From Stegostoma tigrinum (Eukaryota): 64,000 bases of DNA. This document shows positions 28,256 to 42,884 of this stretch, piece after piece. The position numbers and the translations under genes are program-made. The stretch spans positions 682,001 through 746,000 of the forward strand of contig NC_081392.1 of the NCBI RefSeq assembly GCF_030684315.1, written 5' to 3'. The notes under the pieces are model-generated. The model saw only the letters and a list, made by a program, of their open reading frames with translations. It was not told the origin of the DNA and made no database searches. Each line of letters begins with the position of its first letter. Position 1 is the first letter of the stretch.

Positions 28256-30594
28256 ATTCTTGTCACTTGCTCCTTCTCTCGTCTAAGACTTCAATCTTAC
28301 AACTTAGAGCGTTTAGCTGAGTGCCAGCAGAAATTTTCGACTAACTGAAAGCAAAACTAAAAATCCTTGACCTGTGTGAGCCTTGACCTCTCCCTCACAT
28401 GCTTCTTTTACAGTTATTTATAAAAAGTTTTATTTTAAAACAGTATACAACTCGGTACAAGGGTGACAACACCCCCCTGCAAGAGAAGCAGGACAGAACA
28501 CATCTTGCTGAAACGCACAATACGTCAAAACTGTGACTGGCTAGTCATCACATATGCAAGCTAATCTACGCAATTTCGAGACAAGCTATCTAACGTGTTA
28601 ATGCCCTTTGGGAAGAAAACGTTCCTGTGTCGTCCGACCTGCACTTGATACTATATGTACAACAGCGTGGTTGACTGTTCTCTGCAATGGCTTAGTAAAG
28701 TCTTCAATGTAAGGACAATTAAGTACGTGCAGCACGTGTTATCTTTACTAGATATGCCTACAGGCGATCAAAGTGTTAAAGGAAAGTCAGGCAAATCCGT
28801 CTAAATTAATGAAAATATAGAATGTTCTACTTGAAAGTATTACTGAAGTGGGCTGAACAGTAAACCCCAAAAATGAATCAGATTAAATATTTCAACTAGA
28901 ACCCAATTTGGGAAAGAATAGGTTATATGACAACTGGAAAAAGAAGAAGATAACTATAGGCAGACTGTTTAAAATACTGTGCCATTAAATCTAACGGGCA
29001 ATTCAAGACAAGTGACGAAAACATGAAAGTCGTTGGCACAGGTTGAGAAAATAACGTAGATGCCTTTAAGGAGAAGCTGGTCAAGCAGATGAGATAGCAT
29101 TGGCTAAAAGATTTCCACATGGGCGAGTCAAAGAATAATTAGAAGTGGATGATGTTAGACTAATTAGTACTTCTTTCAAAGAACCAATACTGGATTCAAT
29201 TTGGCTATAAATCCTTATTCAATGTGGTATGATTCCATATTTTTAATAAGTTAGGCAAGTTCTCTTTTGTTTTAAGCAGAGAAAGTTTAACTTTCCCATC
29301 TGACAAATTGGGTTCGCGAGGACTAAAATCTTTACTACGCTGAACTGCAAAATGCTTTGAAAATCCCTAAAAGACACCCAAAGTCTGAATTGCAATGGGT
29401 TAACTGTTTACAACACCTGCTTGAACGTCATCTGGAGAGAGGCGTGCTTGTAACAAATTTCTGGAGATAGCTCAATTTCGTCTTGGATGAATAATTTTTA
29501 AGCCATAAGATTAACCATTTCTTGTTTGGTGGATTTCGTCCTCTTTGATACTAGCAATAAGGGGAATTTTAAACAGGTATTGAAATTCATCAATTTGTTT
29601 GAATATGTAAGTAATTGGAAACGATATGGAGAAACTAATAGCTACAGACATGTTCCTTAATCAGGGGCCATTGATTTAGGGTGACTTGAGAAAGGACCAG
29701 AGCAGAAGATCAGCAGAATTCTCAACGTCATTTTTATATATATGTATATATATTTGTTTTTTGAAATGCATTGGCGGAAAACACATTGTAACCAAATTTA
29801 GTAGTAGTCTTTAAAAAGATAATTAGAGAATTATTGGAAGAAATGTTTTTCGTGTTGTTGAGAGATGTTCAGGAGAATGACTTAATTAAGGACCTGTTAT
29901 ATAAAACAAATTTGAGCATTATGAATTGATTGGATTTTTCTTAGTTGTGTCATTCTATGACTGCATGATAATCAGCCCATCTCTCATTGCTATTGCAATT
30001 GTGCATACATCTAATAGAATAAACCTTGGACATTGGTGAAGTACAGAACAGCAGTTCGAGGCATTTTTGAATAAATAACATCCATTCAAATAGTTTTCGG
30101 TTGTTCAGAATTTGAATACCACTTAAAAATATATTTTGTGAAGCATTTGCCTTCCAGTCATCAAGAAAATTCTCAAGAAATACCAGGTTAAATGTAATTT
30201 ACCCTATCCTTTGACATTTCGATCAAGTTGTCCTTGTAATAATGTATTCACATAATTGAAAATTGAAGAGATAAAAAACGATAACAATTAAAACATATCA
30301 TAATGTTTACTATTTGTTTAAAGTTGCAATCTGTTTTTTGATGTTAGGCATTTAGCAAAAGGTAAACGTTTTGACAGAAGAACGGCAGATCGATATGACA
30401 ACTTGATGTATCAATAATAGAGGCAGATACAAAGATAGACATAATCAGTCAAATACGTCGACAGACAGACAGATAGATGGACAGAAAGATAGTGACAGAG
30501 GTTTAGAGAAACTGCCAGGCCAACATATACTCTGAATCACTTAGGGTGTTTTTATTTTTGTTGTTGAGCCCTTCCGTGCAGCTCAGTCAGTGTG

Positions 30595-30891
30595 TGTAAA
30601 CGCCAGTCGCGGTATTGCACGGCCGTGTGATTCACCCATCGGCCAAAACACTCAAGACAGAAGTGAGCGTTTTCAGCAATGGAACTGGTGGTGAAACCGT
30701 CCACCACTCAATTGGGAGTGATTGTTCTCGTACAGGAATAGACAAAGTTCTGATGCTCGCGACCACGAAGCCATTGACATCAATAGACGTTCAAGGTAGC
30801 ATTTTTGCGTAATGACACTCCATACTGATTGGGGTCCCTCCGTTTTGGAATATGGAAGTGGGTGTCTGCAGGGTCAACACGACGGCCACAT
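30595..30891 (-). pseudogene. TRBV: Decayed V exon of the CAWS (TRBV30-like) family
   Basis: ttttacag acceptor; LQTPTSIFQNGGTPISMEC, frameshift, VY*CQ...FVYS...DGFT...NHTAVQYRDWRL. 23-RSS CACACTG (30588-30594), 23 bp, ACAACAAAA, with a spacer resembling those of the 34802 and 42218 copies. Leader not found (LINE upstream). Confidence 0.78.
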
Positions 30892-30954
30892 CTGTAAAAC
30901 AGGAAATGTTGAAATCGACGGCCTTGAGGAAGCACTAATAAAAGCAAGACTGGC

Positions 30955-32790
30955 AGGGTGAGGGTGAGAGTGGATAGATTTAAAACGGACCTGAGGGACA
31001 ACTTTTGCAAACAGAACATGGTGCGTGCATGGAAAGAGCTGCCAGAAGAAGTGGTAGAGTTAGGTATAATTACAACATTCAAGGTCATTTGGACAGGTAC
31101 ATGGATAGCAAAGGTTGAGAGGGACTAGGCCAAATGCAGGCAAATGGGACCAGTACAGTTTAGGTGGTCGGTATGGACAAGTGGAACCAAAGGTTGTGTT
31201 TCCACACTGCATGACTTTATGACTCCACTTAAACCTATGCCCATCGTTTCGAACTCCCCTACTCAAGGGAAAAACACTTTTATATTCTCCTTAGCTATAC
31301 CACTCATGATTTTATAAACCTATGTAAGATCACTCCTCAAACCTCTTCCTCTCCAGCCATCCAGCCTCTCCTTATAATTAAAACCCCTGTGCCGATAACA
31401 GTGTTGTAAATCTTTTCTGTACAATTTTCGATTTAAAAATATCCATTCTACAGCAGACCAACAAAACCTGTATGCAGTACTCCAAAAGTGGCCTCCCTAC
31501 TATCCCATACAGCTGTAACATGATAGGACCAATGAAGGCAAGTATCTTCACCACCCTGTATGTCTGTGCCCCATTTTCAAGGAACTATATACGTGAAACC
31601 CTAGGTTGGTCTGTTCCACAACATTCCCCAGGGCCCTACCATTAACTGCGTATGTCCTGCCCTGGTTTGTTCTGCCAAAATGTAACATCTGGCATTTATC
31701 TAAATTAAATTCCATCTGCCACTCCTCGGCCCATTTGCCCAGTTGATCAAGATGCAATTGCACTTTTAGATAACCTTCTATACTGTTCACTATATCACCA
31801 ATTTTAGTGCCATCTAAATTTGCTAACCAACCTTCCTATGTTCTCATCCAAATCGTTTATACACAGGTCTCCAGTCTGGAAAACACCCCTCTACCACCAT
31901 TCTCCGTCTCTGGCTGTCTAGCCAAGTTTGTATTCAATTGTCTACCTCTCCCTGGATCCCAGGTGATCTAACCAGCCAATCATGCAGAAACTTGTCGAAG
32001 GTTTGCTAAAGCCCATGTAGACAGCACCTGCCGCTCTGTCCTCATCTAGTCCTCAGAAACTTCAACCAAATTAATGAGACATGATTTCCCATACACAAAG
32101 CCATGCCTACTGTCCCTCATCAGTCCTTACCTTTCCAAATGCATGTAAATCCTACATCTCGGCATCCCCTCTCCAACAACTTACCCTCCACTGACATTAG
32201 GCTCACTGTCCATAATTCGTGGCTTTTCTGAAATAAAGGCAAACATTCACAATTTCAGTCTTCCAGTATCTCAAACCTTCCTTTAGATTATACAAATACC
32301 TCTGCAAAGGGCCACACAACATCTTCCTTAGCTTCCCACAATATCCTGGGATATATTTGATCAGAGCCCGTGAGTTTATCATCTATATCAGTCTTACTCC
32401 CTCCAGTACCTCTTCTTCCGGCATGTGGACTGTAGTCAAGACATCTCTACTTAGTTCCCTGAGCTCCCGCGCTTCGATGTCTTATATCATATACCTACCG
32501 TTGAAGAGTCGATGACACTTCTACTGGCGTTGCGTTTGTTTTTATTTGACCTGTTTGCCTAATCAAACTATTCAGACTTGTTATTACACACCTCCCGAGC
32601 CTAATGTCTGTTGGTTCAGAAGTAAAGACAGTATCACTGCGCTGCAGGAGGGCCGACAATTTTTTTCTCTCTCTTGTTATTACTCCACTTGTATGGATTC
32701 TACATCTTCTGAACAATGATGATTTCTTGTTATTGTAGTTATTCTATCCATTGAACAAAACTACTCCGTCGCCCTTTTCTTCCTGCCTGT
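30955..32790. mobile_element. CR1 LINE fragments (short + 3' end, then long minus-strand copy)
   Basis: Minus ORF 31548-31790 QLGKWAEEWQMEFNLDKC; + 3' tail at about 30955-31225. Confidence 0.75.
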
Positions 32791-42043: not shown

Positions 42044-42077
42044 ATGTTACTTTTATTAATTCTGATCATGTGTCATT
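42044..42077 (+). pseudogene. Leader exon of the V at 42218 (MLLLLILIMCH)
   Basis: Hydrophobic peptide, T|GTACGG donor; GC box and TGCGTCA-TTTCC element at about 41914-41940. Confidence 0.75.
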
Positions 42078-42217
42078 GTACGGAATATATTTCAAAAATA
42101 ATACTTCCTAATCGATATTTCATAACTTTATTTTTCTGATTTTTTTTTCAATGTAAGAATGCTTTCTCCATTGCTCCCATTTTTTCTGGTCTCAACCTTT
42201 CACTCTCTGTTTACCAG

Positions 42218-42516
42218 ATGTGAAATTGCAGACTGTCCGCCAGACTCCCACGGCTGTTTCTAGACTTCCTCAGGATAAATTGGAATTGGAGTGCGCTGTG
42301 GAGGGGAGCACTTCTATCATCAACATGTACTGGTACAGGTAATGCCCGGGGAAGGAACTGTAGTTGATATTTTATTCCTTAGCCACAGAAAGCGTGATTT
42401 CGGAACAGCCCGCAGTCGGTTTCACAGCCAAGCGACCAAACATATATTTATTCATCCTGGAGTCCTCCAGCTTGTTGGGCAATCACTCGGCCATGAATTA
42501 CTGTGCTTGAAGTCTT
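42218..42516 (+). pseudogene. TRBV: TRBV30-like V pseudogene, inverted, three in-frame stops, intact RSS
   Basis: VKLQTVRQTP...LELECAVEGSTSIINMYWYR*CPGKEL*LIFYS...FTAKRP...FILESSSLLGNHSAMNYCA*SL. RSS CACGGTG (42517-42523), 23 bp, ACAAAAACC (42547-42555). Confidence 0.93.
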
Positions 42517-42884
42517 CACGGTGACTCAGAAAGAGGGAGCAGCTCAACAAAAACCCCAAAGACAGCATGAAACACCTGTGAGAACTGATTCAGGCTGCGC
42601 TTCGTCCTTCTAAGGGTTATTTTGCAAAGTGAAATAGTTTTGCCGAGAACATCAAACGGGTTTGAATAGAGATTGCGTATATTTTATACATATACAACCG
42701 TGCCAAGAAGAGTGAGTTGTTACATCTAGCTGGGAGGCTAAGAGTCTTCGTGAAGCAAAAACAAGGACTTCGGGTGACCTCTTAGTTTCCTTTAAAGTAG
42801 AGGTTAGATGGAGTACATTTAGATAAAACCATAATAAGATTTTAAGATTATTTTTAAAGGAAGGAACAACTTAGTGATTGATGT

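What the first reader, a model, noticed from the sequence alone, without database searches (positions are those of the whole stretch)
30556..42555. Three-member shark V family resembling mammalian TRBV30 (CAWS type), upstream of D in both orientations
Seen: the copies at 34802 and 42218 read QTxxQ.P...LELECAVEG...YWYRQ...LLFYS...RP...FILxSxxLL...CAWS, and a decayed copy lies on minus at 30595. Established (from recall): human TRBV30 has LSLECTVEG, LYWYRQ, LQLLFYS, SRP..FILSSKKLL and CAWS, and is the lone inverted V 3' of the constant genes. Inference: this lineage may predate the shark/bony-vertebrate split. Here it expanded 5' of D, two of the three copies are also inverted, and all three visible copies are pseudogenes.
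Basis: partly seen in the sequence, partly recalled or inferred. Interest (0 to 1): 0.7.

Follow-up and report, generated by a model that had tools for sequence, protein, structure and literature searches.

The report
Dead shark TRBV30-lineage T-cell gene copies
These are broken copies of a shark T-cell receptor beta gene family that groups with human TRBV30; the family's unbroken members lie backwards behind two constant genes outside the window, much as TRBV30 does, so that layout is likely as old as jawed vertebrates.

Summary
The three segments are real TCR-beta V pseudogenes, but the layout was misread. The window is the middle of a mirror-image locus: V(+) array - C,J,D(-) - inner V - D,J,C(+) - V(-) array. 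The plus-strand copies (34802, 42218) face a second D 11 kb past the window end, so they are not inverted to it. 42218 reads CA*S. The 30595 copy and a fourth fragment (36168-36335) belong to another subfamily. All six open-frame family members lie 3' of a C gene and inverted to it; four have normal-looking RSS. Kinship to TRBV30 holds: best single TCR chain in PDB is a TRBV30 chain; with the CAWS tail removed, trees give the shark+bony clade 97-99/91-99. One AU test rejects broad convergence (p=0.004); a narrower alternative is not rejected (p=0.31); TRBV20/29-type rows were missing. The same layout is tabulated for bamboo shark (PMC10322711 supplement); the inverted clade is published for amniotes, amphibians, salmonids. 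I found no paper extending it to sharks. The scan reported this before on neighbouring DNA (e1-9816379, e1-8622529). In passing: a second, unlinked TRB locus on contig C59.

The parts
30556..30891 (-). Decayed V pseudogene of the divergent CAW subfamily (P0007/P0008 type): exon 30891->30595, heptamer CACACTG 30594->30588, 23-bp spacer, nonamer-like 30564->30556
34616..34652 (+). 37-nt leader exon (MKYPLLFLIMCH) with GT donor
34802..35099 (+). CAWS-type V pseudogene; one 1-bp deletion in the first Cys codon (34876-7); second-Cys motif reads CYCAWS
35100..35138 (+). 23-RSS CACGGTG / 23 / ACTAAAACC
36168..36335 (-).
42044..42077 (+). 34-nt leader exon (MLLLLILIMCH) with GT donor
   Evidence: read from the sequence
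42218..42516 (+). CAWS-type V pseudogene with three stops (42340, 42361, 42508); ends CA*S
42517..42555 (+). 23-RSS CACGGTG / 23 / ACAAAAACC
4128..4141 (-). D segment of cluster A (GGGACAACAGGGAC) between 12- and 23-RSS
1740..3700 (-). J segments of cluster A (FG at 3661, 3040, 1777; one more on the + strand at 2803); C-A lies about 10 kb left of the window
9908..26194 (-). Three non-CAWS inner V segments facing D-A (9908 with a stop; 18383 and 25895 open)
57795..58094 (+). Open non-CAWS inner V facing D-B (which lies at about window position 75050, beyond the end)

Best explanation
The segments are broken inner copies of a shark TCR-beta V family that groups with mammalian TRBV30, whose open-frame members lie 3' of, and inverted to, both constant genes of a back-to-back double D-J-C locus, where they likely join the near D by inversion. 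Shown: layout, lesions, RSS, tree placement. Inferred: outer members with normal RSS (585888, 808500, 812139, 818976 on C51) join the near D by inversion, or the far, co-oriented D by deleting the near cluster; the window's plus copies keep leader, splice sites and RSS and could still be cut, toward D-B by deletion, but would give no chain; the four window relics probably arose by one tandem duplication of a divergent (minus V, plus V) pair and then decayed (ordinary birth-and-death).
For: Two D-J-C clusters in opposite orientation with open C Ig, hinge and TM exons, 61/117 residues identical. 6 of 6 open-frame CAW-lineage V in the 464-kb region lie outside the C genes and point inward; 4 of 6 have CACAGTG/23/nonamer. 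Genome-wide the top 8 matches are all in this locus (150 of 170 candidates scored). Best single TCR chain in PDB for V 814496 is Mel5 beta, 76 bits, E 1.8e-20, a TRBV30 chain (PMC5887915, passage); a non-CAWS shark V has no such chain in its top 60. With all columns after the second Cys removed, shark and bony CAW genes form one clade: 99/91, 99/99, 97/95. AU test rejects shark CAW + other shark TRBV as a clade, p=0.004. Bamboo shark table has the same order, and J spacings match (221/543/257/378 vs 216/568/263/378). A contig from a relative's probable RNA run has the leader spliced to the 808500 orthologue. dN/dS 0.39 between the two plus copies fits some time under selection before decay.
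Against: Only 92 columns; bootstraps had not settled. No TRBV20/29-type mammalian row and no named human or mouse TRBV30/31 row was in the trees; homologues were collected with the shark profile. Shark CAW + YVEQ family as a clade is not rejected (p=0.31). A sturgeon CAG family moves in and out of the shark clade, so out-paralogy is open. No rearranged transcript was seen in this species; the spliced contig reads through its RSS (unrearranged). One bamboo-shark gene model (P0256) joins an outer V to the far, co-oriented C, so inversion is not shown. No Eph, DBH-type monooxygenase, Kell-type or TRP match was listed on C51, so amniote flanking synteny is absent. Cassette duplication rests on gene order and one 168-nt match.
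Confidence: 0.82

Rival explanations
1. Sister lineage, not orthologue: shark CAW genes and bony-vertebrate TRBV30 come from a duplication before the split; sharks kept one branch, tetrapods the other, sturgeons both.
For: The sturgeon CAG family sits inside the shark clade at 98/90 and 99/99, while sturgeon CAWS genes sit with the bony CAWS genes.
Against: With five CAG rows its place is unresolved, and a tree with all bony CAW genes together is not rejected (p=0.40). It still makes the lineage older than the split.
Confidence: 0.25
2. The sequence kinship is real but the inverted 3' position arose independently: an inverted duplication of a D-J-C block in sharks makes every outer V inverted to its nearest C, whatever its family.
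For: Non-CAW V also lie in the outer arrays (630882, 632826, 798570); CAW-lineage relics lie inside too; pike and salmonids have head-to-head V-D-J-C pairs (PMC10464911, passages); amniote flank genes were not found on C51.
Against: All 6 open-frame CAW genes are in the outer arrays, on both sides, and outermost; the same family is the inverted one in amniotes (PMC11754216, PMC2275272).
Confidence: 0.35
3. Convergence: CAWS and the other shared motifs evolved separately in a shark-only V family.
For: Short domains; the narrower grouping with the YVEQ family is not rejected.
Against: The clade survives removal of the CAWS tail under two models; AU p=0.004 against grouping with the other shark V; intermediates exist in bichir, sturgeon, gar, tarpon, amphibians, reptiles.
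Confidence: 0.05
4. One reading: a TRBV30-like family that expanded 5' of a single D, partly inverted, and died out.
For: True inside the window alone.
Against: Second D-J-C cluster at C51:757-770 kb; six open-frame members 3' of the C genes; two subfamilies.
Confidence: 0.02

Closest known systems
Human TRBV30 / mouse TRBV31 / opossum TRBV28 and the 3'-inverted TRBV clade (PMC2275272 passages; PMC11754216 Results part 1, Discussion part 1, passages)
   Same: Sequence clade, CAWS end, 23-RSS; open-frame shark members lie 3' of C and inverted.
   Different: Multi-gene and on both sides of a double locus; EPHB6/MOXD2-type flanks not found on the contig; the copies in this window are inner and broken.
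Bamboo shark (Chiloscyllium punctatum) TRB locus, Giorgetti et al. 2023 (PMC10322711, supplementary file 16 part 1 read)
   Same: Same order V(+)x15 - C1,J,D1(-) - V(-)x3,V(+)x2 - D2,J,C2(+) - V(-)x15; matching J spacing; many outer V share the 37-nt leader.
   Different: The table gives coordinates only and no link to TRBV30 in the parts I searched; fewer outer V here; no inner V with a 37-nt leader is listed there, so the 34802/42218 pair has no listed counterpart.
Pike and salmonid TRB (PMC10464911, passages)
   Same: Two V-D-J-C units head to head with V genes in the middle.
   Different: There the two J sets are near-identical (recent) and V genes are almost all inside; here the C exons are 52% identical and large V arrays lie outside.

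Membership tests
TRBV gene segment | V exon with leader exon, 23-bp RSS, in a locus with 12/23 D, J and C-beta | tested here: met
Functional TRBV | Open frame with both Cys and Trp | tested here: not met
   All four window copies are broken as assembled; 34802 by one unverified 1-bp deletion
TRBV30 lineage | Clade with mammalian TRBV30, not driven by the CAWS motif | tested here: met
   99/91, 99/99, 97/95 with the tail cut; AU p=0.004; mammalian rows carry source names 'TRBV30'
TRBV30 lineage | Closer to TRBV30 than to any other human TRBV, including TRBV20/29 | tested here: inconclusive
   PDB ranks only TRBV30-type single chains in the top 60, but TRBV20/29 rows were not in the trees
TRBV30 lineage | Strict orthology (one gene lineage at the shark/bony split) | tested here: inconclusive
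   Sturgeon CAG family unresolved; AU p=0.40 and 0.31
3'-inverted TRBV | Lies 3' of C in opposite orientation (window copies) | tested here: not met
   They lie between the two D segments
3'-inverted TRBV | Lies 3' of C in opposite orientation (open-frame family members) | tested here: met
   6 of 6
3'-inverted TRBV | Next to EPHB6/KEL/TRPV as in amniotes | tested here: not met
   No listed match on C51 (the last two score only part of their candidates or used a stricter first look); a C1s-like exon lies at C51:555.5 kb
3'-inverted TRBV | Rearranges by inversion | not testable with these tools
   No run on record as RNA holds the locus; only an unrearranged spliced contig in a relative

The most novel reading that the evidence does not exclude
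The TRBV30 lineage and its backward seat behind C-beta both date to the last common ancestor of jawed vertebrates. The lone inverted TRBV30 of mammals is the last survivor of an outer V array of a shark-like mirror-image locus: losing one D-J-C cluster from the layout seen here leaves exactly the amniote order (forward V - D-J-C - inverted CAWS V), with no translocation needed. Sharks also keep a second, unlinked TRB locus, giving three C-beta genes.
Probability: 0.3. Interest if true: 0.62.

Novelty: new member of a known kind. Interest (0 to 1): 0.36.

Why it matters
The window's copies are ordinary pseudogenes. The family matters because published work traces the inverted 3' TRBV clade to amniotes, amphibians and salmonids and models it as a translocation (PMC11754216). 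Placing it, inverted behind C, in a shark would extend it to all jawed vertebrates and offers a testable alternative origin. It would also make inversional V-to-DJ joining an ancestral feature of TCR-beta.

Tried and rejected
No RNA holder listed for the D-J region; contigs of two probable RNA runs of a relative showed no V-D-J joint in the rows displayed (most rows not shown). Criscitiello 2010 (PMC3222143) is not held. Flanking-gene hunt: 36 long ORFs right of the window gave only LINE pieces, one ALKBH8_N match and a zinc-finger ORF. FastTree gave only 84 for the clade. The two short relics (30595, 36168) were left out of all trees; their subfamily rests on tblastn. Rows left out: 36 of 141 (long or non-TRB rows), further thinning to 82 (with 7 C59 rows added) and 62. 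The sturgeon CAGS row was added to the 'CAW' group. A frame slip in the 34802 N-terminus was corrected before any tree. A LINE match between the two putative cassettes (57%) was rejected as evidence: two different LINE copies. The PDB search with the 34802 fragment itself is weak (TRBV30 chains 40-42 bits, another TCR beta chain 39.7). Idea that the double cluster is a haplotype artefact: rejected (C exons 52% identical; same layout in bamboo shark; a DNA run covers cluster B with 0-2 differences). Not-in-print claim rests on searches; subscription papers are not searched, and 7 of 19 supplements of PMC10322711 were not searched.
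Full report
Observation. The window is G000:C51:682001-746000. Two V exons lie on + at 34802 and 42218, each with leader exon, splice sites and a 23-bp RSS; a profile built from local V genes scores them at E 2e-20 and 3e-26. The 34802 copy lacks one base in the first Cys codon and ends CAWS. The 42218 copy has three stops and ends CA*S. The copy on - at 30891->30595 is heavily decayed, has no CAWS, and best matches a separate subfamily (P0007 bamboo shark, P0008 catshark). 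The order minus-V, plus-V, minus-V, plus-V, with matches 30746-30909/36185-36352 (66%) and 34506-35453/41932-42851 (73%), suggests one tandem duplication of a two-gene pair (inference). dN/dS between the plus copies is 0.39 (dS 0.39).

Surroundings. I fetched 200 kb on each side and mapped 464 kb. There are two D-J-C clusters pointing away from each other. Cluster A (-): D at window 4141, partly decayed J, C exon at C51:672.2 kb. Cluster B (+): D at C51:757.0 kb, 11 kb past the window end, seven J, C exon at 767.3 kb. Both C genes have open Ig, hinge and TM exons; the Ig exons share 61 of 117 aligned residues. So the plus copies are co-oriented with D-B, and the minus relics with D-A. Outside each C lies an inward-pointing V array. 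All 6 open-frame CAW-lineage genes are there: 585888(+) and 604474(+) behind C-A; 808500, 812139, 814496 (CSWS) and 818976 (all -) behind C-B. Four have CACAGTG/23/nonamer; 604474 has a 19-bp spacer and 814496 a GACAGTG heptamer. Two more broken members lie at about 600.9 and 803.8 kb. A genome-wide search found its top 8 matches only here (150 of 170 candidates scored).

Kinship. For V 814496 the best single TCR chain in PDB is Mel5 beta (76 bits, E 1.8e-20; multi-domain antibody constructs score higher by summing domains). PMC5887915 (one passage) gives Mel5 as TRBV30. A non-CAWS shark V has no such chain in its top 60. Homologue searches return the family in bamboo sharks, catshark, horn shark and rays, and in bichir, sturgeon, gar, tarpon, amphibians, turtles, lizards, crocodile and mammals, several named TRBV30 by their sources (automatic names). 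Trees were built after cutting all columns behind the second Cys, so W-S cannot drive them. The shark+bony clade scores 84 in FastTree, 99/91 under LG+G4 (105 rows), 99/99 under LG+C20 (82 rows) and 97/95 (62 rows). Forcing shark CAW genes together with the other shark TRBV is rejected (AU p=0.004). Against: 92 columns; unsettled bootstraps; no TRBV20/29-type and no human or mouse TRBV30/31 row; forcing shark CAW with the YVEQ family is not rejected (p=0.31); a sturgeon CAG family falls inside the shark clade in two trees and is unresolved in the third, though a tree with all bony genes together is not rejected (p=0.40).

Mechanism. By the 12/23 rule (established knowledge) an outer V with a 23-RSS can join the near D by inversion, as TRBV30 does, or the far, co-oriented D by deleting the near cluster. 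Neither is shown here. A contig from a relative's probable RNA run has the leader spliced to the 808500 orthologue and reads on through the RSS, i.e. an unrearranged transcript. A whitespotted bamboo shark gene model (P0256, XP_043536992.1) links the 814496 orthologue to an A-type J and C (63% to C-A, 50% to C-B); it is a prediction, and points to the far cluster. The window's plus copies could still be cut but cannot give a chain as assembled. They are best read as birth-and-death debris of a living family.

What is known. Supplementary file 16 of PMC10322711 (part 1 read) lists the brownbanded bamboo shark TRB as 15 V(+), C1-J-D1(-), three V(-), two V(+), D2-J-C2(+), 15 V(-). J spacings match cluster B (221, 543, 257, 378 against 216, 568, 263, 378), and many outer V there have the 37-nt leader of the CAW genes here. 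By leader length and gene numbering, the intact inner TRBV15 of that table is probably P0007, the counterpart of the 30595/36168 relics (inference). PMC11754216 (Results part 1, Discussion part 1, passages) reports a clade of 3'-inverted TRBV in amniotes, says the inversion also occurs in salmonids and some amphibians, and models it as a translocation. PMC2275272 (passages) gives opossum TRBV28 = human TRBV30 = mouse TRBV31. PMC10464911 (passages) describes head-to-head V-D-J-C pairs in pike and salmonids. PMC12698447 and PMC12529555 (passages) cover newt and axolotl. PMC13433984 (passages) added nothing. Eight searches found no paper tying a shark V to TRBV30; subscription papers and 7 of 19 supplements of PMC10322711 were not searched. 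Amniote flank genes were not listed on C51; a C1s-like exon lies 30 kb beyond the outermost V.

Scan history. After forming my reading I found that neighbouring windows had reached much the same one (e1-9816379, e1-8622529). These are unreviewed AI notes, not independent support.

Verdict. Observation partly confirmed; kinship supported; layout misread. The copies are ordinary pseudogenes of a TRBV30-lineage family: a new member of a known kind. The interest lies in the outer arrays and in the possible age of the inverted position. Interest 0.36.

Noticed in passing
G000:C59:6151000-6289000 (L064-L077): A second TRB locus on another contig: V array (-), D GGGACAGGGAACT at 6172.5 kb, at least 5 J, C exon 43% identical to C-B, TM exon; no V found in 44 kb 3' of C, no CAWS V; 7tm GPCR ORFs on both sides. 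Its YVEQSP/AVYYCAC V genes match the nurse-shark TCR-beta primer peptides in PMC5931798 (passage), while the bamboo-shark table matches C51. So two unlinked TRB loci and three C-beta genes; one search found no paper on it and the scan had no look-alike.
   Followed up: partly
L073:5359-5643 (C59): The YVEQ V family groups with a turtle V family (P0048) at 99-100/95 and lies next to the CAW clade (98/66): a second V lineage shared by sharks and amniotes. Whether it relates to squamate TRE V genes was not tested.
   Followed up: partly
window 2780-2840 (+): A J segment on the + strand inside the minus-strand cluster A, with no clear RSS and a stop just upstream of the FG motif; probably a small local inversion.
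   Followed up: no
L020:3537-4235 (C51:555537-556235, +): Single-exon serine-protease domain closest to complement C1s in PDB (E 1.6e-60), 30 kb outside the outermost V. From recall, C1S lies near TRB on chicken chromosome 1; not checked.
   Followed up: partly
L013:8882-9172 (C51:630882, +): Open V with a 64-nt leader that does not group with the other TRBV in the trees (falls near the outgroups) although it lies in the TRB outer array; the bamboo-shark table lists a V with the same leader length next to C2.
   Followed up: no
sturgeon proteins P0012, P0014, P0018, P0020, P0024: A sturgeon/paddlefish V family ending CAG that belongs to the CAW clade beside the ordinary CAWS genes: two CAW sub-lineages in one fish group.
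   Followed up: partly
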